Shown here piece after piece: positions 37,762 through 52,404 of a stretch of 64,000 bases of DNA. Both the position numbers and the translations under genes were made by a program. How positions within the stretch are numbered: the first letter of the stretch is position 1; each line of letters opens with the position of its first letter. Location: the IMG/VR virus record IMGVR_UViG_3300034272_002779; one strand, written 5' to 3'. The notes beneath the pieces are model-generated. The model was not told where the DNA came from. It saw only the letters and a list, made by a program, of their open reading frames with translations, and ran no database searches. This DNA comes from an uncultured virus (IMG/VR IMGVR_UViG_3300034272_002779) (taxonomy: Duplodnaviria > Heunggongvirae > Uroviricota > Caudoviricetes).

Positions 37762-38283
37762 CTAATTTTTTGAATATCTGTAATTTCCAGGATTTACCTG
37801 AAAGAAATTTTTAACACCATACAGGGAGCTTACCGTTTTCAAAGATGGAACTCCCGAAAGCTTAGGATTATCCCAGGTCCAGATTCTAAGAGTATCCTTG
37901 CTTGGCTTAAGGTGGAATAAATTTTTACCTTTTATCTCAATCACCTTGCTTTTACCCTCTTTACGGTATTGCCCCCATAGATCAAGAATAGATTCTGTAT
38001 ACCCTCTGATTCCTTTATAATCAAGAAATCTCTCCAGCATCATTTTTCTATCCATCATCTGTATATCAGAATCATCCGGTTTAATACCATCATATCGGGA
38101 GAAGCTTTTCTTAAGATCGCTCATAACTTCAATCGAGGGTTCACCCTTAAGGATAGAGAGAATATCTTTTTCGTAACCATAGATCTTTTCTCTTTCTAGA
38201 AATTCGGACAGGTCCTGGAGAAAATCTAGGTATTCCTCGTTAGATTCCAAAATTCCCCTAAAGTTATAGAATGAAAAGTCCAT
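37762..38283 (-). CDS. hypothetical protein (weak tag)
   Basis: GATATATA upstream. Confidence 0.65.
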   Translation of the reverse strand: MDFSFYNFRGILESNEEYLDFLQDLSEFLEREKIYGYEKDILSILKGEPSIEVMSDLKKSFSRYDGIKPDDSDIQMMDRKMMLERFLDYKGIRGYTESILDLWGQYRKEGKSKVIEIKGKNLFHLKPSKDTLRIWTWDNPKLSGVPSLKTVSSLYGVKNFFQVNPGNYRYSKN

Positions 38284-42751: not shown

Positions 42752-42874
42752 ATGAAAAACAAATTCGGAAATATCGTTAAACCGTTTATGCCTCAGGCTA
42801 ACGCACCGATTGCACAGGTGGGGTTTGCTAAGTGGTATAATGGCAACGCAAAAAATCCGGATTTGATTAGATGA
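42752..42874 (+). CDS. putative attenuator leader peptide 1 (40 aa)
   Basis: MKNKFGNIVKPFMPQANAPIAQVGFAKWYNGNAKNPDLIR; composition matches the downstream tRNAs. Confidence 0.75.
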   Translation: MKNKFGNIVKPFMPQANAPIAQVGFAKWYNGNAKNPDLIR

Positions 42875-42901
42875 TTAAATAAATAGATCACCATAACTAA
42901 G

Positions 42902-42936
42902 AAACTCCGGATCCACAAGATTCGGAGTTTTTTTTT
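42902..42936 (+). terminator. attenuator terminator 1
   Basis: AAACTCCGGATC-cacaa-GATTCGGAGTTT plus T-run, just before tRNA-Phe. Confidence 0.85.
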
Positions 42937-43384: not shown

Positions 43385-43458
43385 TGTCACGTAGCTCAGT
43401 TGGTTAGAGCATCTGACTGATACTCAGAAGGCCGGTGGTTCAAATCCACCCGTGACAA
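43385..43458 (+). tRNA. tRNA-Ile(GAU)
   Basis: Cloverleaf. Confidence 0.95.
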
Positions 43459-43518
43459 CTTAAAAATAAAGTAGTTAACTATGGAAAGTGACAAGAGCGA
43501 CAAGAGTCGCAAGAGAAT

Positions 43519-43958: not shown

Positions 43959-44030
43959 AGCGAATTAGCTCAGAGGAAGAGCGTCCGGCTCATATCCGGA
44001 AGGTCGGGATCTCAGAATTCCCATTCGCTA
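43959..44030 (+). tRNA. tRNA-Met(CAU) with atypical T-loop
   Basis: Loop CT-CAT-AT; T arm GGGAT-CTCAGAA-TTCCC lacks TTC. Confidence 0.75.
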
Positions 44031-45730: not shown

Positions 45731-45826
45731 ATGAAAAATTTATTCCATATAGACCTAAGTTTACTCACATCGATATCGTCGTTGACATGTGATGAAACTA
45801 ACTGTGCTATGCTAAGGGATAAATAA
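45731..45826 (+). CDS. putative attenuator leader peptide 2 (31 aa)
   Basis: MKNLFHIDLSLLTSISSLTCDETNCAMLRDK; composition matches the downstream tRNAs. Confidence 0.75.
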   Translation: MKNLFHIDLSLLTSISSLTCDETNCAMLRDK

Positions 45827-45846
45827 CCATATTAATAATTAAATTT

Positions 45847-45879
45847 AAAAGGTCCCTTAGATTCTAAGGGACCTTTTTT
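45847..45879 (+). terminator. attenuator terminator 2
   Basis: AAAAGGTCCCTTAG-att-CTAAGGGACCTTTT plus T-run. Confidence 0.85.
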
Positions 45880-45914
45880 ATTTTGTGCGGTCTTTGACAT
45901 GTTGGAACTAGAAA

Positions 45915-45998: not shown

Positions 45999-46003
45999 CA
46001 AAA

Positions 46004-46090
46004 GGAAAGTTGTCCGAGTGGTTTATGGAGCACGCTTGGAAAGCGTGTGCACCCGGAAGGGTGCCATAAGTTCGAATCCTATACTTTCCG
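46004..46090 (+). tRNA. tRNA-Ser(GGA)
   Basis: Long variable arm. Confidence 0.92.
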
Positions 46091-46095
46091 CAAAA

Positions 46096-46168
46096 GCCGG
46101 GGTAGCTCAATTGGTAGAGCTCTTGATTTGTAATCAAGTGGTTGTCAGTTCGATTCTGACCTCCGGAG
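46096..46168 (+). tRNA. tRNA-Thr(UGU)
   Basis: Cloverleaf with G1.A72 mismatch. Confidence 0.9.
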
Positions 46169-46175
46169 CAAATAC

Positions 46176-46248
46176 GTCACTGTGGCCGAGCCGGTTTAGG
46201 CGGGGGTCTGCAAAACCTCACACACAGGTTCGAATCCTGTCAGTGATT
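46176..46248 (+). tRNA. tRNA-Cys(GCA)
   Basis: Cloverleaf, U73. Confidence 0.92.
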
Positions 46249-46265
46249 CTAAAAAATAGGAAACT

Positions 46266-46688
46266 ATGGAAAAGGAAGAAAAGATCGAGAACATTAAAAA
46301 TGCGATCGCTGCCGAAAAGGCTGAAAGAGAGAGAAAAAGGAAAGAGTATTGGTGTAATCTTCCTAAATTTGAGAAGGCACATGATGTACCGACTATACCT
46401 AGAGTGGATGAAGAAGAATATAGAAATTTCTACGTACCAAAACTAATAGAGGCTGGTGCTATTCCAAAGAAAGATCTTGTTGACGGTCAGCTCTACTATG
46501 GTGATTATAGAAATGCAGAAGTTGGTAAATGGAATGCTAAAGAAAACGTTTTTGATCATTGGAGATACAAATTTGGATTCAGAAAGGATACGTGCAACCA
46601 CTTCGAAGATGATGACGGGTTTGCATTATTCGTTCCTATTAGATTAGCTAACGAAGAAGAGATAGAAGAATATCTCAATACAAAATAA
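46266..46688 (+). CDS. conserved phage hypothetical protein
   Basis: IPKKDL.DG..Y.G.YRNA...W....F...R.KFG......HFEDDDGFALFVP. Confidence 0.8.
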   Translation: MEKEEKIENIKNAIAAEKAERERKRKEYWCNLPKFEKAHDVPTIPRVDEEEYRNFYVPKLIEAGAIPKKDLVDGQLYYGDYRNAEVGKWNAKENVFDHWRYKFGFRKDTCNHFEDDDGFALFVPIRLANEEEIEEYLNTK

Positions 46689-46693
46689 TACAC

Positions 46694-46771
46694 GGTGTGC
46701 GTAGCTCAGTTGGTTAGAGCGTCTGATTGTGGTTCAGAAGGTCGGCAGTTCGATCCTGCTCGTGCACCCCA
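46694..46771 (+). tRNA. tRNA-His(GUG)
   Basis: G-1/C73, CCA encoded. Confidence 0.93.
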
Positions 46772-46772
46772 T

Positions 46773-46843
46773 GCCTCGATAGCTCAAGGGTAGAGCATCG
46801 CTTTGGTATAGCGGGGATATGGGTTCGATTCCCATTTGAGGAT
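46773..46843 (+). tRNA. tRNA-Thr(GGU)
   Basis: Cloverleaf with G1.A72 mismatch. Confidence 0.88.
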
Positions 46844-46853
46844 CTTGACCAAT

Positions 46854-46927
46854 GTTCCCGTAGCCCAACAGGCAGAGGCAATGGACTTAAAATCCATACA
46901 GTAACGGTTCGAATCCGTTCGGGAATA
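46854..46927 (+). tRNA. tRNA-Leu(UAA), short variable loop
   Basis: Loop CT-TAA-AA; variable region ACAGT. Confidence 0.88.
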
Positions 46928-46933
46928 CTAAAT

Positions 46934-47013
46934 AGGTGTGTATCCCCTCATGCTTATACCATGTAGAAAGGGTAGTTGGTTACACGAGGGTTCAAGTCCC
47001 TCCGCACCTACCA
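46934..47013 (+). ncRNA. non-canonical tRNA-like RNA with UAU anticodon
   Basis: Acceptor AGGTGTG/CGCACCT-A-CCA, normal T arm, no D arm in the usual place, loop CT-TAT-AC. Confidence 0.7.
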
Positions 47014-47022
47014 ATAAACAAT

Positions 47023-47096
47023 ACCTCGGTAGCCCAATTGGCAGAGGCGCTAGATTTAGGATCTAGTTAGTGTGGGTTCGAATCCCACTCGAGGTA
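47023..47096 (+). tRNA. tRNA-Leu(UAG), short variable loop
   Basis: Loop TT-TAG-GA. Confidence 0.88.
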
Positions 47097-47102
47097 CAGA
47101 AA

Positions 47103-47188
47103 GGAAAGTAATGCTCGATGGTGAGAGTGCCCGCCTGCTAAGCGAGGTGTCCGGGAAACCGGATGTGGTTCGATTCCACTGCTTTCCG
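47103..47188 (+). tRNA. tRNA-Ser(GCU)
   Basis: Long variable arm, G73. Confidence 0.82.
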
Positions 47189-47253
47189 CTTAATTTTTTT
47201 TTTAATTCGGGAAACAATATTAAATTTGGATCATAAATAATAAGAATAAACAT

Positions 47254-47328
47254 CGCGGGTTAGACTGGAGGTGGTTCCCAGCTCGGTCTCATAAGCCGAA
47301 GACACAGGTTCGAATCCTGTACCCGCTA
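47254..47328 (+). tRNA. initiator-type tRNA-fMet(CAU)
   Basis: CGCGGG start with unpaired C1; loop CT-CAT-AA. Confidence 0.85.
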
Positions 47329-47356
47329 CTTCTAGTAGTTCTTTGAACTAAAAATA

Positions 47357-47565
47357 TTGATAGTGGTCTTCCCCACCCAACGGATGTCGACAATCCAGGA
47401 GTGGAACCGGAATTCATCACCCTTTCTGCCGAGGCCTCGTAAAACTACGATTAAGCAGTTAAGATTGGAGCGAGATGGGTACTCCATCACTATCGATAAC
47501 ATTGGGCCAGATCAAGCCTCTTGCGAAAGCAACGTAATCTGCCTCCGTAACCACGCCGGAGGAAT
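47357..47565 (+). ncRNA. candidate structured RNA(s)
   Basis: GATAGTG/CACTATC closing stem, internal hairpins, GAAA tetraloop hairpin, CCTCCG/CGGAGG. Confidence 0.45.
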
Positions 47566-47569
47566 TTAA

Positions 47570-47643
47570 GGTCCGTTAGTAGAGTTGGTTACAACGCCGC
47601 CCTGTCACGGCGGAGGTCAGGGGTTCGAATCCCCTACGGACCG
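47570..47643 (+). tRNA. tRNA-Asp(GUC)
   Basis: Cloverleaf. Confidence 0.95.
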
Positions 47644-47647
47644 CAAC

Positions 47648-47920
47648 GAGTAAGAGGTACTCGCTTCGTTTTTGACTACGATAAAAGGTCACGGTTAATG
47701 TCCAGGTGGTAACCGGAATTGGTATTGAAGGGCTCCTATCTCTTAGGTAGGTATGGGTCAATATCATTAAAATACTGGAACTGAGATTAAAGGCAGGTAG
47801 CAGAGCCTCTCAGTAGCTTGACAGGTTTTTATGTGGTAAGACACTAATGAAAGTAATGGTTCTCGAAACAGCAAGAGAAACCCGTTAAAATCTAGCTTAG
47901 CAAATCTCACTAAGCGAAAC
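47648..47920 (+). ncRNA. candidate structured RNA(s)
   Basis: Stems CGGTTA/TAACCG, TGGTATTGA/TCAATATCA, ACTGAG/CTCAGT, GCTTAG/CTAAGC. Confidence 0.45.
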
Positions 47921-47922
47921 TT

Positions 47923-47994
47923 GGTCCCTTCGTCTATCGGTTAGGACGTTAGGTTTTCATCCTAGAAAGAGGGGTTCGATTCCCCTAGGGACTA
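47923..47994 (+). tRNA. tRNA-Glu(UUC)
   Basis: Cloverleaf. Confidence 0.93.
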
Positions 47995-48004
47995 CAAATT
48001 AAAT

Positions 48005-48687: not shown

Positions 48688-49158
48688 ATGGCTTATAGAA
48701 TAATACTCAGAAGAGATGGTTCTACAAATTGGGAATCACAAAATCCAGTTCTTTTATTAGGAGAACCGGGATATGAAACAGATACTGGTAAATTTAAGAT
48801 TGGTGACGGATCTAGTATGTGGTCTGATTTGGACTACTATGTAGGAGCTACGGGAGGTACCGGTGCAACAGGAGCTGTTGGAATTACCGGTGCAACTGGA
48901 AGTGTCGGTGCAACTGGAGCTACCGGAGTAACTGGTCCAACCGGAGCTACCGGGGTTACTGGTCCAACCGGAGCTGCTGGTACTGGACCTAATACTTTCT
49001 ATGGTAATCAAACTATTGTTGGGGGAACATCAGGAACATTAATTCTCTCTGGTTATTCGGTTCTTAATTTTCCGGACGATCCTAGTGCTGCTACTGGCGG
49101 TGTACCTCTGGGAGGATTTTATCATAACGCTGGAGCTTTAAGAATCAGAATATCTTAA
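48688..49158 (+). CDS. collagen-like fibre protein
   Basis: LRR....W...[21 protein letters not shown]-terminal domain plus GxT repeats. Confidence 0.8.
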
Positions 49159-49240
49159 ACCGGCAATAAAAATTAAATAAGTCCGGCGTTAACACGTTGG
49201 ACTTATTTATGATATATAGATAAGAAAATAATAAGATAGG

Positions 49241-50278
<1,038 letters not shown>

Positions 50279-50346: not shown

Positions 50347-52404
50347 ATGAGCTACGACGACGAAATGGATGACATCCAACAAAACAAGAATAAAGTACCT
50401 GGAAAAACTCCAGTTCTGGATTCATATTCTAGAGATCTAACAGAGATGGCAGCTAAAGGGCAACTGGATCCAATTATAGGTAGAGACGAGGAGATCGAGA
50501 GAGTTTCTCAGATTCTATCTAGAAGAAAAAAGAATAATCCGGTTCTTATTGGAGAGCCCGGTGTAGGTAAATCTGCAATTGCAGAAGGTCTGGCTTTAAA
50601 GATTGTTCAGAGGAAAGTTTCGCGTACTCTACTAAATAAAAGAGTGCTAACTCTAGATCTAGGATCACTAGTTGCTGGAACTAAGTACAGAGGACAATTT
50701 GAGGAAAGAATTAAAGCAATTTTAGAAGAGCTTAAAGCAAACACTAATGTTATTATATTCATCGATGAGATCCACACTATGGTTGGCGCTGGTGGTGCTT
50801 CAGGTTCACTTGATGCTTCTAATATGTTTAAACCCCCACTAGCTAGAGGAGAGATACAGTGTATAGGTGCTACCACTCTTAATGAATACCGTCAGCACAT
50901 AGAGAAAGACGGTGCACTGGAAAGAAGGTTTCAGAAGGTACTAGTAAATCCACCAGATTCTGATACGACATTAGAAATTCTAGATAACATAAAAGCTAAA
51001 TATGAGGACCATCATAATGTTACTTATACGGAGGATGCGATAGTTAACTGTGTTAAGCTAACAGAAAGATACATTACCGATAGGAACTTCCCAGATAAAG
51101 CTCTAGACGCATTAGATGAAGCGGGGAGTAGAACACAACTTAGCGACGTGAAGGTTCCTGATTCGATAACAGCATTAGAAAAAAATCTGGAGCAAACTCA
51201 AAAAACAAAAAAAGAAGCAGTAGCTAAACAAGACTATGAGGGGGCTGCAAAATACCGTGACCAGGAAAGAAAAATTAAAATCTCACTTGATACTGAAATA
51301 AAAATCTGGGAAGAAAAACTAAAATCTAAAAGAAAGATAGTAGACGGGGAGAAGGTAGCTGAGGTCGTATCTATGATGTCAGGAATCCCCCTTAAGAAAG
51401 TTTCGGAAACCGAAAATGAAAGACTGGCCGTAATGTCTACCGAGTTAAAAGGTAAGGTAATAGGACAGGATCACGTAATAGAAAAAGTATCCCGAGCAAT
51501 ATTAAGAAACAGAATGGGATTAAAGGATCCAAATAAGCCAATCGGATCTTTCCTTTTTCTTGGTCCAACTGGAGTAGGTAAAACCCAACTAGCAAAAGAA
51601 TTAGCCGAATATATGTTTGGTGATAGGGATGCTATGATCAGAGTAGATATGAGTGAATACTCGGAAAAATTTGATGCTACTAAATTAATCGGAGCACCTC
51701 CGGGATATGTGGGCCACGATGAAGGTGGACAACTTACCGAGAAGGTAAGAAGAAAACCATATTCAATTGTTCTTTTTGACGAGATAGAAAAAGCACATCC
51801 GGAAATATTTAATTCTCTTCTCCAGATACTAGATGAAGGAAATATCACCGACAGCTTAGGTAGAAAAATAAACTTTAAGAACACTTTGATAATTCTTACC
51901 TCTAATGTTGGTCAGAGAAAACTTCAGGACTTTGGACCGGGTGTAGGATTTTCCACATCAACTAAAGCCAAATCTTCGGATCTGGAGAATGAAATGCTTT
52001 TAAAGAAAGAATTACAGAAAACATTTTCTCCAGAATTTATAAACAGACTGGATGATATTATTTACTTCAAAAATCTAGATAGAGAACATCTAATAAAAAT
52101 TCTAGACGTTGAACTATCTCGTGTTATACCTAGATTGGAATCATTGGGATACAAGATAAAGATTGCTGATGATTTAAAGAATAAAATATGTGAGGATGGA
52201 TTCGATCCTAAATTCGGTGCTAGACCACTTAAAAGAATCATGCAGAAGTACATAGAAGACACTCTAGCAGACTTAATGGTCCAGAATAAGATAGAGAATG
52301 GTTCTACCATAATTTTGTCCTATGACGTCAAAAAAGAAGGCGGAATAGAAAATCCAGTTAAGGTTAAAATAAATAATAAAAGAAAACCCAAGGACAATGA
52401 TTAA
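50347..52404 (+). CDS. clpC: ClpC-like AAA+ chaperone lacking the N-terminal Clp domain
   Basis: Two AAA modules ([16 protein letters not shown]), GYVG loop, UVR-type linker ([13 protein letters not shown]). Confidence 0.92.

What the first reader, a model, noticed from the sequence alone, without database searches (positions are those of the whole stretch)
46934..47013. Rearranged tRNA-like RNA with UAU anticodon, matched by AUA codons in the leader
Seen: normal acceptor stem, A73, encoded CCA and T arm, but no D arm after the acceptor strand. Instead an extended arm (TATCCC...AGGGTA) carries a CATG-CTTATAC-CATG anticodon-like hairpin, and a D-loop-like AGTTGGTTA lies 3' of it. Both Ile codons in leader 2 are ATA, whereas leader 1 uses ATC/ATT. 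Known: bacteria normally read AUA with lysidine-modified tRNA-Ile2(CAU). Inference: this may be a functional, TilS-independent AUA decoder with an altered fold, or a decoy.
Basis: partly seen in the sequence, partly recalled or inferred. Interest (0 to 1): 0.82.

Follow-up and report, generated by a model that had tools for sequence, protein, structure and literature searches.

The report
Rewired phage isoleucine tRNA (UAU)
This is a real gene for an isoleucine tRNA whose D arm is wired in a different order from every textbook tRNA, one member of a large, almost unannotated class of phage tRNAs that standard tRNA finders mostly miss.

Summary
Window 46934-47013 (+), inside a 27-gene phage tRNA array, has a 7-bp acceptor stem, A73, CCA and a normal T arm. 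The strand after U8-A9 pairs across the anticodon hairpin (anticodon UAU), and a D-loop sequence follows that hairpin. It is not a one-off. An anticodon-blind pattern scan of viral contigs gave 106 of 117 loci with the same architecture, and 88 distinct copies show strong covariation in every helix (97.6% paired against 60.8% shuffled). They also show an R15-Y48 Levitt-type covariation. A covariance model scores the element at 96 bits, against 23.5 bits or less for ordinary tRNAs. Copies with U at D-loop position 20 carry UAU, GAU or CAU plus A73. Copies with A20 carry arginine anticodons (47 of 50). These are the known IleRS and ArgRS identity rules. Cultured Streptomyces, Rhodococcus and crAss-like phages carry copies, nearly all unannotated. 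AUA is the commonest Ile codon in the window (42.5%), and the array's canonical tRNA-Ile is GAU. Best reading: a working AUA-decoding tRNA-Ile whose D/anticodon domain is internally permuted. Expression and charging are not shown. The link to AUA codons in the "leader" is within chance. Eight literature searches found no description.

The parts
46934..46940 (+). acceptor stem, 5' strand (AGGTGTG)
   Evidence: Pairs with 47003-47009. In 88 homologues all 7 pairs show changes on both sides and 97.2% of cells are paired.
46941..46942 (+). U8 A9
   Evidence: TA in 88 of 88 homologues, and not fixed by the search pattern.
46943..46946 (+). strand that plays the role of D-stem positions 22-25 (T + CCC)
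   Evidence: CCC pairs with GGG at 46970-46972. 100% of cells are paired and 3 of 3 pairs covary on both sides. RNAalifold predicts the same helix independently. T opposite T in 87 of 88.
46947..46948 (+). C (26-like) and U (27-like)
   Evidence: C in 88 of 88. U opposite U (with 46964) in 84 of 88.
46949..46963 (+). anticodon hairpin: 4-bp stem and 7-nt loop CTTATAC; anticodon TAT at 46955-46957
   Evidence: 4 of 4 stem pairs covary and 99.1% of cells are paired. C32 in 87 of 88; U33, A35 and A37 in 88 of 88.
46964..46969 (+). U (43-like), one variable base, GAAA linker
   Evidence: GAAA was fixed by the scan pattern, so its conservation is uninformative. Divergent members have other A-rich linkers.
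46970..46973 (+). strand that plays the role of D-stem positions 10-13 (GGG + T)
   Evidence: Partner of 46944-46946.
46974..46985 (+). displaced D loop AGTTGGTTA (A14 G15 .. G18 G19 U20 .. A21), then CAC (46-48-like)
   Evidence: Identical to the D loop of the canonical tRNA-Ile(GAU) at 43385-43459. Column 15 covaries with the base just before the T stem: A-U 48, G-C 32, other 7. Mutual information is 0.64 bits against 0.09 or less for any other column. The base at position 20 tracks the anticodon class.
46986..47002 (+). T arm
   Evidence: 5-bp stem and loop TTCAAGT. 3 of 5 pairs covary, the other 2 are invariant G-C.
47003..47013 (+). acceptor 3' strand, discriminator A73 (47010), encoded CCA (47011-47013)
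   Evidence: A73 in 88 of 88 distinct copies and 106 of 106 loci. CCA is encoded in only 11 of 88 homologues and in 3 of the 27 tRNA genes of the window.
43385..43459 (+). canonical tRNA-Ile(GAU) of the same array, the complementary isoacceptor
   Evidence: ARAGORN and Rfam at 77 bits. It has the same D-loop sequence and the same C38 as the element.

Best explanation
The element is a working gene for tRNA-Ile with anticodon UAU. It supplies the phage with a decoder for AUA, its commonest isoleucine codon, and does not need lysidine formation by TilS. Its secondary structure is a three-way junction rather than a cloverleaf. After U8-A9 comes the strand that normally forms positions 22-25, then 26 and the anticodon arm. 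A short A-rich linker follows, then the strand that normally forms positions 10-13, then the D loop (A14 to A21), three bases standing for 46-48, and the T arm. Positions 10-45 are therefore circularly permuted inside the molecule, with the new ends between 21 and 22. The three changed backbone joins are 9 to 22, 45 to 10, and 21 to 46. The stack of D stem on anticodon stem keeps 10 layers. The partners of the tertiary core are kept: U8/A14, R15/Y48, and G18 G19 with the T loop. The RNA should therefore still fold into the L shape and present anticodon, position 20, A73 and the acceptor end to IleRS, EF-Tu and the ribosome. What is shown: the helices, the 15-48 covariation, the restriction of anticodons, and the agreement with identity rules. 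What is inferred: the 3D fold, processing, charging with Ile, decoding of AUA, and origin by tandem duplication of the 10-45 segment followed by loss of the outer halves.
For: (1) Family. The exact 15-mer of the anticodon hairpin found copies with different acceptor, T and long-range stems.

(2) Covariation on 88 distinct copies. 97.6% of cells are paired against 60.8% in shuffles (0 of 500 shuffles reach it). The covariation score is 0.918 against 0.204, and against 0.11-0.17 when partners are slid by 1-3 columns. The long-range helix is 100% paired with 3 of 3 pairs changed on both sides. RNAalifold predicts the identical structure unaided.

(3) Tertiary signature. Column 15 pairs with the base before the T stem as A-U 48, G-C 32, other 7, and that base is its only strong mutual-information partner.

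(4) Model R1 separates the class from ordinary tRNAs. The element scores 96 bits. In 46 virus records the re-found copies score 80.9-96.1 bits. Ordinary tRNAs score 25 bits or less.

(5) Identity rules. With U20, anticodons are UAU 64, GAU 31, CAU 10, UAC 1, and N73 is A in 106 of 106. With A20, 47 of 50 distinct copies have Arg anticodons (ACG 20, UCU 18, UCG 4, CCU 4, GCG 1), and N73 is G 23, A 20, U 7. Fisher p is 1e-33. This matches the bacterial identity sets in passages and Table 1 of PMC9976931: Ile has A73, U20, A35, U36, A37; Arg has A20, C35, U/G36, A/G/U73. With C or G at position 20, only 2 of 119 pattern hits have the architecture.

(6) Division of labour in 20-kb neighbourhoods of 46 records. 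Rewired UAU with canonical GAU occurs in 8 loci. Rewired GAU with canonical UAU occurs in 3. A rewired GAU plus UAU pair with no canonical Ile occurs in 5. Rewired CAU with canonical GAU occurs in 5. The same anticodon in both forms occurs in 3. In two arrays of 20-21 canonical tRNAs, Ile is missing and is supplied only by rewired genes (L322, L345). The same complementarity holds in this window (canonical GAU), in Streptomyces phage Coruscant (rewired GAU, canonical UAU) and in Kehishuvirus 'tikkala'.

(7) Demand. ATA is 551 of 1295 Ile codons in 86 ORFs of the window.

(8) Context. The element lies 5 nt after tRNA-Leu(UAA) and 12 nt before tRNA-Leu(UAG) in the array.
Against: No expression, processing or charging data exist. 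Four metatranscriptome contig sets gave no cover of the element (uninformative, see Tried and rejected).

The abstract of PMC3575796 says E. coli IleRS charges a UAU tRNA-Ile poorly. It also says such a tRNA cannot tell AUA from AUG on E. coli ribosomes. A UAU decoder may therefore be inefficient or error-prone in an ordinary host.

The loop has C38. The abstract of PMC13276492 says t6A37 needs 36-UAA-38 and D-stem contacts. A passage of PMC9976931 calls t6A37 a strong determinant for bacterial-type IleRS. However, the canonical tRNA-Ile(GAU) of the same array also has C38.

The anticodon stem has only 4 Watson-Crick pairs plus a U.U. The fold energy of the single sequence is not unusual (z -0.97).

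The homologue sets were gathered with patterns that fix the GAAA linker, part of the D loop and GGTTCRA. Conservation of those letters is therefore not evidence, and near-duplicate contigs inflate the counts. The isoacceptor complementarity is from small numbers and was not tested for significance. The 3D claim rests on mapping to the textbook tRNA core from my own knowledge; no model was built.
Confidence: 0.78

Rival explanations
1. It is a tRNA mimic that is made but not used in translation. It could be a decoy for a host tRNA-targeting nuclease or defence sensor, a sponge or regulator for IleRS, or a primer.
For: The core is non-standard, and standard detectors fail on it. Nothing shows charging. 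UAU tRNAs are poor substrates for E. coli IleRS (abstract of PMC3575796). Phage tRNA arrays are known to hold stable RNAs of unknown role (recalled: T4 species 1 and 2 RNAs; not checked here).
Against: A decoy would not need A73, a 12-bp acceptor/T branch, U33 and A37 all kept. It would not need position 20 and N73 to switch together with the anticodon between the Ile and Arg rule sets. It would not be expected to fill the isoacceptor missing from the canonical set.
Confidence: 0.1
2. It is a functional tRNA-Ile, but the segment after the long-range helix is only a floppy D-replacement connector, as in D-armless mitochondrial tRNAs. The canonical tertiary core is not kept.
For: Rfam aligns it as a tRNA with the D arm deleted. 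Review passages on mitochondrial tRNAs describe flexible connectors (PMC7609411).
Against: The connector keeps A14, R15, G18 G19 and a base at position 20 that follows aaRS identity rules. Column 15 covaries with the base before the T stem as a Levitt pair would. The D loop is letter-for-letter that of the canonical tRNA-Ile next door.
Confidence: 0.1
3. It is a decayed or rearranged tRNA pseudogene, or a chance look-alike.
For: It scores below Rfam's gathering score and is not called by ARAGORN.
Against: More than 100 independent viral loci and cultured phages of three host phyla keep the same architecture with compensatory changes. R1 gives E 1.1e-25.
Confidence: 0.01
4. The transcript is cut and religated into a normal cloverleaf tRNA, as happens with the permuted tRNA genes of a red alga (recalled).
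For: The segment order is a permutation of the normal order.
Against: The 5' and 3' acceptor strands are already in the normal order, so three cuts and three joins would be needed. The covariation pattern supports the unprocessed fold. No ligase or splicing gene was seen in the window.
Confidence: 0.01

Closest known systems
Canonical tRNA-Ile(UAU) of bacteria and phages (e.g. Mycoplasma mobile tRNA-Ile2 UAU, PMC3575796, abstract read)
   Same: UAU anticodon reading AUA without lysidine, A73, and an ordinary acceptor/T branch. Canonical UAU genes sit in related phage arrays.
   Different: Those have a normal D arm between position 9 and the anticodon arm. Here the D stem is closed across the anticodon arm and the D loop comes after it.
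D-armless mitochondrial tRNAs (mt-tRNA-Ser(AGY), nematode mt-tRNAs; review PMC7609411, passages read)
   Same: No D hairpin after the acceptor strand, and the secondary structure is not a four-arm cloverleaf.
   Different: Those lose the D stem and D loop and are described as flexible. Here both D-stem strands and a full D loop with G18 G19 are kept in a different order. The class is found in phages of bacteria, not in organelles.
allo-tRNAs and other 8/4 or 9/3 tRNAs (PMC5389517, abstract and passages read)
   Same: Non-canonical tRNA shapes found in metagenomes and phages, some with a UAU anticodon.
   Different: Those change the split of the 12-bp acceptor/T branch and keep the D arm in place. 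Here the branch is the standard 7/5 and the D/anticodon domain is permuted.
Circularly permuted tRNA genes of Cyanidioschyzon merolae and two-piece tmRNA (recalled; Rfam's tmRNA_permuted model gave only 10.1 bits)
   Same: The gene order of RNA segments is a circular permutation of the usual order.
   Different: There the whole molecule is permuted at gene level and processing restores a normal mature tRNA. Here only positions 10-45 are permuted, the ends of the molecule are normal, and the mature RNA should stay permuted.
Engineered non-canonical-fold tRNA in E. coli (PMC11551756, abstract only)
   Same: Asks whether bacterial translation can use a tRNA of non-cloverleaf structure.
   Different: That is a laboratory construct, and its abstract states that all known bacterial tRNAs are canonical. 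The class here is natural and widespread.

Membership tests
tRNA (Rfam RF00005 / ARAGORN definition) | score at or above the curated gathering threshold, or a call by a standard detector | tested here: not met
   27.7 bits against 29 and no ARAGORN call. Of 20 homologues, 7 pass Rfam at 30-35 bits. ARAGORN of 55.
tRNA (Rfam RF00005 / ARAGORN definition) | 7-bp acceptor stem, 5-bp T stem with T loop GTTCRA, discriminator, 3' CCA or a site for it | tested here: met
tRNA (Rfam RF00005 / ARAGORN definition) | D hairpin (10-25) between position 9 and the anticodon arm | tested here: not met
   The strand after U8-A9 pairs with a strand 3' of the anticodon hairpin.
tRNA (Rfam RF00005 / ARAGORN definition) | anticodon arm with a 7-nt loop, U33 and purine 37 | tested here: met
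   Loop CTTATAC. U33 and A37 in 88 of 88. The stem has 4 pairs plus a U.U.
tRNA (Rfam RF00005 / ARAGORN definition) | tertiary core: U8-A14, R15-Y48, G18 G19 with the T loop | tested here: inconclusive
   The letters are all present and 15-48 covaries. The contacts themselves cannot be shown with these tools.
bacterial tRNA-Ile (IleRS identity set, Table 1 of PMC9976931) | A73, A35, U36, A37 | tested here: met
bacterial tRNA-Ile (IleRS identity set, Table 1 of PMC9976931) | U20 in the D loop | tested here: met
   The D loop AGTTGGTTA has U after G18 G19. The class with A there carries Arg anticodons instead.
bacterial tRNA-Ile (IleRS identity set, Table 1 of PMC9976931) | A38, G16, C4-G69, U12-A23, C29-G41 (minor elements) | tested here: not met
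   C38, U16, T4-A69, and C-G in the 12-23-like pair. The canonical tRNA-Ile of the array also has C38.
bacterial tRNA-Ile (IleRS identity set, Table 1 of PMC9976931) | aminoacylation with isoleucine | not testable with these tools
   Needs an IleRS assay or in-vivo charging analysis.
D-armless mitochondrial-type tRNA | D stem and D loop absent, replaced by a short connector | tested here: not met
   Both D-stem strands and a 9-nt D loop are present.
permuted tRNA gene (whole-molecule circular permutation) | 3' half of the tRNA encoded upstream of the 5' half | tested here: not met
   Acceptor 5' and 3' strands are in the normal order.

The most novel reading that the evidence does not exclude
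Phages have evolved and spread a second tRNA architecture. It is an internal circular permutation of the D/anticodon domain that keeps the L shape and the aaRS identity contacts. It is used for the rare-codon decoders tRNA-Ile (AUA/AUY) and tRNA-Arg (AGR/CGN). It persists because the altered backbone path makes these tRNAs invisible or resistant to host tRNA-directed nucleases, defence sensors or modification enzymes that read the D arm, so the phage keeps decoding when host tRNAs are attacked.
Probability: 0.2. Interest if true: 0.95.

Novelty: new variant of a known kind. Interest (0 to 1): 0.88.

Why it matters
The cloverleaf is treated as universal for bacterial translation; one abstract read here says that all known bacterial tRNAs are canonical (PMC11551756).

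A natural, widespread class with a permuted D/anticodon domain that still obeys IleRS and ArgRS identity rules would have several consequences:
- It would show that the translation machinery reads the 3D shape, not the backbone path.
- It would be a natural example of internal circular permutation in a small RNA.
- It would expose a blind spot in tRNA annotation: about 40 cultured Streptomyces phages, crAss-like phages and a Rhodococcus phage carry unannotated or misnamed copies.
- It would change counts of phage tRNA sets and estimates of codon adaptation.
- It would offer scaffolds for orthogonal tRNAs.

Cultured hosts make it directly testable.

Tried and rejected
- **Whole genome.** The window's own assembly is not held. 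The nearest virus record, G001 (289,651 bp), ends at window position 37,942 and lacks the tRNA region, so no whole-genome tRNA or tilS census was possible.
- **First phage search.** blastn of 46600-47400 hit only the neighbouring ordinary tRNAs.
- **Expression.** 20 public runs hold part of 46000-48000, 6 of them RNA. I laid four metatranscriptome contig sets. The element itself had no cover, except the end of one contig that matches only the T arm. Contigs of short structured RNAs are not expected, so this says nothing either way.
- **Proteins.** PHROGs and Pfam scans found no aaRS, TilS, ligase or tRNA-modifying gene. The scans covered 87 ORFs in total: 11 against PHROGs and 76 against Pfam.
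- **Leaders.** The two upstream regions align at only 65% column identity, with no clear shared module. Promoter-like and terminator-like counts equal the shuffled expectation. The ATA pattern in the leaders is within chance.
- **Ile-only idea.** I held this until and then dropped it. A motif-free structural descriptor over 1.06 Mb of tRNA neighbourhoods found only UAU, GAU, CAU and one UAC. But those regions had been chosen through Ile-type copies, and Arg-type copies appeared once A20 was allowed.
- **Region 47330-47569.** No Rfam match, no phage blastn match, and a fold z-score of -1.54.
- **Literature.** Eight searches, plus term look-ups in PMC7609411, PMC5389517 and PMC13092985, found no description of this fold. 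The library holds open-access papers and bioRxiv only, and I did not read supplements.
- **Earlier notes of this scan.** Nothing by place or by sequence. One note by words.

Full report
**What is there.** The window is part of a large freshwater phage genome. Its nearest held virus record is 289,651 bp, the public runs that hold it are lake-water metagenomes, and its proteins include tail-fibre, ClpB-like, sigma-factor and many glycosyltransferase genes. Between 41.6 and 48.0 kb lies an array of 25 tRNA genes called by ARAGORN, plus one more seen only by Rfam. The element, 46934-47013, sits 5 nt after tRNA-Leu(UAA) and 12 nt before tRNA-Leu(UAG). Neither tool reports it at threshold. With relaxed thresholds Rfam's tRNA model gives 27.7 bits (gathering score 29), deleting the D arm and inserting 18 nt in the variable region.

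- acceptor 46934-46940 / 47003-47009
- A73 at 47010 and CCA at 47011-47013
- T arm 46986-47002
- hairpin CATG-CTTATAC-CATG at 46949-46963
- AGTTGGTTA at 46974-46982

**It is a family.** The exact 15-mer of the hairpin occurs in 63 viral-contig loci, about the number chance predicts. Thirteen of these (for example L006, L035, L042, L051, L055, L059) carry the whole architecture with different acceptor, T and long-range stems.

I then scanned with a pattern over the 3' half only: linker, start of the D loop and start of the T arm, leaving the anticodon free. Of these, 106 have the full architecture. I aligned 88 distinct sequences, taken from both scans and the window.

On this alignment 97.6% of cells are paired, against 60.8% in column shuffles (0 of 500 shuffles reach the observed value). 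The covariation score is 0.918 against 0.204, and 0.11-0.17 when partners are slid by 1-3 columns. Of the 20 pairs counted, 18 show changes on both sides. The helix that replaces the D hairpin (columns 11-13 with 37-39; window 46944-46946 with 46970-46972) is 100% paired, with CG, GC, UA and AU all seen. RNAalifold, given only the alignment, predicts exactly the same four helices.

A covariance model of the family (R1) scores the element at 96.0 bits (E 1.1e-25). The best ordinary tRNA of the window scores 23.5 bits.

**The core.** Letters that the scan pattern did not fix are nearly invariant:
- U8 A9: 88 of 88
- the C after the first long-range strand: 88 of 88
- U opposite U at the top of the anticodon stem: 84 of 88
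- U opposite U at the outer end of the long-range helix: 87 of 88
- C32: 87 of 88; U33 and A37: 88 of 88
- the CA before the last connector base: 88 of 88
- A73: 88 of 88

The purine after A14 covaries with the base just before the T stem: A-U 48, G-C 32, other 7 of 87 distinct rows. Mutual information is 0.64 bits, against 0.09 or less for every other column. This is the behaviour of the Levitt pair 15-48.

Read against the standard numbering (my knowledge of the yeast tRNA-Phe core), the order of segments is:
- 1-7, U8, A9
- the 22-25 strand, then 26
- 27-43 (the anticodon arm)
- one base and GAAA
- the 10-13 strand
- A14 to A21
- three bases for 46-48
- 49-65 (the T arm), 66-72, 73

Positions 10-45 are therefore circularly permuted within the molecule. 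The stack of D stem on anticodon stem keeps ten layers: U.U, three pairs, C with G, U.U, and four pairs. In the canonical fold, base 9 lies on the 12-23 pair, base 46 on the 13-22 pair, and base 45 on the 10-25 pair. The three new joins (9 to 22, 21 to 46, 45 to 10) therefore connect residues that are already neighbours. This last step is inference; no 3D model was built.

The D loop of the element is letter-for-letter that of the canonical tRNA-Ile(GAU) at 43385-43459.

**Identity.** In the scan that required U after G18 G19, anticodons are UAU 64, GAU 31, CAU 10 and UAC 1, and the discriminator is A in 106 of 106 loci.

A copy in Streptomyces phage Braelyn (72.4 bits) has anticodon UCG and A after G18 G19. 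I therefore repeated the scan with A at that place. Of these, 55 have the architecture, giving 50 distinct sequences. Among the 50, 47 carry arginine anticodons (ACG 20, UCU 18, UCG 4, CCU 4, GCG 1), with discriminator G 23, A 20 and U 7.

With C or G at that place, only 2 of 119 pattern hits have the architecture. This also serves as a control that chance pattern hits do not pass the structural test.

The association of position 20 with anticodon class has Fisher p 1e-33 on distinct sequences. It reproduces the bacterial identity sets in passages and Table 1 of PMC9976931:
- Ile: A73, U20, A35, U36, A37
- Arg: A20 as the main determinant, C35, U/G36, and A, G or U at 73

The single UAC copy with A73 fits the valine set. 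This is the strongest argument I have that the displaced loop sits where a D loop sits and that these RNAs are charged by their cognate synthetases.

**Use in genomes.** R1 re-found the gene in 46 of 46 virus records searched (56-459 kb; 18 are at least 90% complete), with one to three copies each. I fetched 49 stretches of 20 kb around them.
- In these stretches ARAGORN of 55 rewired genes.
- Rewired UAU with canonical GAU: 8 loci. Rewired GAU with canonical UAU: 3. Rewired GAU plus UAU pair with no canonical Ile: 5. Rewired CAU with canonical GAU: 5. Same anticodon in both forms: 3 (L327, L330, L352). The rest have no canonical Ile gene within 20 kb.
- Two arrays with 20 and 21 canonical tRNAs lack Ile altogether and have rewired GAU plus UAU (L322, L345).
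- Some records are near-duplicates (for example L340 and L363). I did not test the complementarity for significance.
- Three more divergent copies with other A-rich linkers also carry GAU or UAU.

In the bacterial genome collection, 12 of the 120 pattern hits listed are family members. They occur in Bacteroidota (Chryseolinea, Flammeovirgaceae, Bacteroides, Saprospiraceae), Saccharibacteria, Omnitrophota, Bacilli and a Clostridia MAG. Four of the eight I scanned with ARAGORN lie inside tRNA arrays that look like prophage.

**Cultured phages.**
- blastn with three members hit about 40 Streptomyces phages of 130-135 kb, Rhodococcus phage Peregrin, Microbacterium phage Magritte, crAss-like phage cr130_1, 'bajarodcaudo virus 1' and Kehishuvirus 'tikkala'.
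- In nearly all rows the annotation under the match is 'none'.
- One record names the GAU copy tRNA-Leu (UUA). Another lists tRNA-Phe under an Arg-type place (not examined further).
- R1 confirms Coruscant at 88.0 bits (GAU), cr130_1 at 84.7 (UAU), Peregrin at 79.1 (UAU), Braelyn and EGole at 93.6 (GAU), 'tikkala' at 88.7 (GAU) and Braelyn's second copy at 72.4 (UCG).
- Of 20 Ile-type homologues, Rfam's tRNA model passes 7 at 30-35 bits, while their canonical neighbours score mostly 40-76.

**Why AUA here.** In 86 ORFs of the window ATA is the commonest Ile codon: 551, against 409 ATT and 335 ATC, or 33 per thousand codons, more than ATG. The array has a canonical tRNA-Ile(GAU) and three CAU genes:
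- 41861, elongator-like
- 43959, seen by Rfam only, with an odd T loop
- 47254, with a C1-U72 mismatch as in initiators

I cannot say whether one of these is a lysidine-dependent tRNA-Ile2. No tilS was seen in the window, and the rest of the genome is not held.

**The leader claim.** Each is followed by a hairpin and a T run ahead of a tRNA block. Given the window's codon usage these patterns have p 0.19 and 0.18, or 0.03 jointly, after the fact and among many small ORFs. I do not count this as a link.

**Caveats.**
- Nothing here shows that the RNA is made, trimmed, charged or used. The attempt with public RNA runs was uninformative.
- E. coli IleRS charges a UAU tRNA poorly, and such a tRNA misreads AUG on E. 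coli ribosomes (abstract of PMC3575796).
- C38 may prevent t6A37 (abstract of PMC13276492), although the canonical tRNA-Ile of the array shares C38.
- R1's E-values are rough.

**Known or new.** Eight full-text searches and look-ups in three papers found no description of this fold. The review of non-canonical tRNAs does not mention phages (0 occurrences). A 2024 abstract states that all known bacterial tRNAs are canonical. The library is open-access only, and I did not read supplements.

An earlier AI note of this scan (e1-6065237) reports a like gene in marine T4-like phages as 'D-armless'. I reached the long-range helix independently. This report adds the retained D loop, the 15-48 covariation, the GAU, CAU and arginine forms, the identity-rule test and the cultured carriers.

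I file it as a new variant of a known kind: a tRNA with a permuted core.

Noticed in passing
Viral-contig loci L369-L481 (e.g. L376, L400, L431); Streptomyces phage Braelyn MN096371 92044-92119 (L366:394-469): The same rewired architecture exists as arginine tRNAs (anticodons ACG, UCU, UCG, CCU, GCG) with A20 in the displaced D loop and G, A or U at position 73. L431 holds two such genes side by side.
   Followed up: partly
window 43959-44030 (+): A tRNA seen by Rfam (49.8 bits) but not by ARAGORN. It has anticodon CAU and a T loop CTCAGAA without the usual TTC. It could be a tRNA-Ile2-type or a degenerate gene.
   Followed up: no
window 47254-47329 (+): A tRNA(CAU) with a C1-U72 mismatch, as in bacterial initiator tRNAs, and an abnormal long D region. 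Rfam gives only 41 bits.
   Followed up: no
window 47340-47540 and 47660-47852 (+): Intergenic stretches between tRNA genes that are covered by metatranscriptome contigs. The first reaches depth 97 in one run at 90-99% identity. The second has contigs identical to the window. There is no Rfam family, no match in cultured phages, and the fold z-score is -1.54. They may be unknown small RNAs of the array.
   Followed up: partly
window 42752-42925 and 45731-45885 (+): Two short ORFs, both starting MKN.F, each followed by a strong hairpin and a T run just ahead of a block of tRNA genes. The DNA of the two regions is only about 65% alike.
   Followed up: partly
L331:9971-10047 (same gene as L092) and L429: Two rewired copies carry anticodon UAC (valine) with A73. 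They are one base away from the Ile form and suggest identity switching within the class.
   Followed up: no
L345:9003-9081, L330:9875-9953, L321:17778-17854: Divergent rewired Ile-type genes (33-60 bits with R1) have linkers other than GAAA (AGTTAA, TCATTAACAA, ACCAA). The class is therefore wider than the patterns used here.
   Followed up: no
Streptomyces phage EGole MK494112 75265-75341; Streptomyces phage Mildred21 about 91374-91439: GenBank annotates the rewired GAU gene of EGole as tRNA-Leu (codon UUA). In Mildred21 a tRNA-Phe feature lies under an Arg-type match. Both are likely misnamings by standard tRNA finders.
   Followed up: partly
window 48688-50278 and 50347-52404 (+); 53.4-63.8 kb: Two collagen-repeat tail-fibre-like proteins, a ClpB-like AAA+ chaperone (PHROG 4871, E 3e-245), and a run of at least nine glycosyltransferase genes.
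   Followed up: no
L305:3575-3648 (crAss-like phage cr130_1): ARAGORN reads the gene annotated tRNA-Gln as anticodon CUA, an amber suppressor. This fits the stop-codon recoding known in some crAss-like phages (recalled).
   Followed up: no
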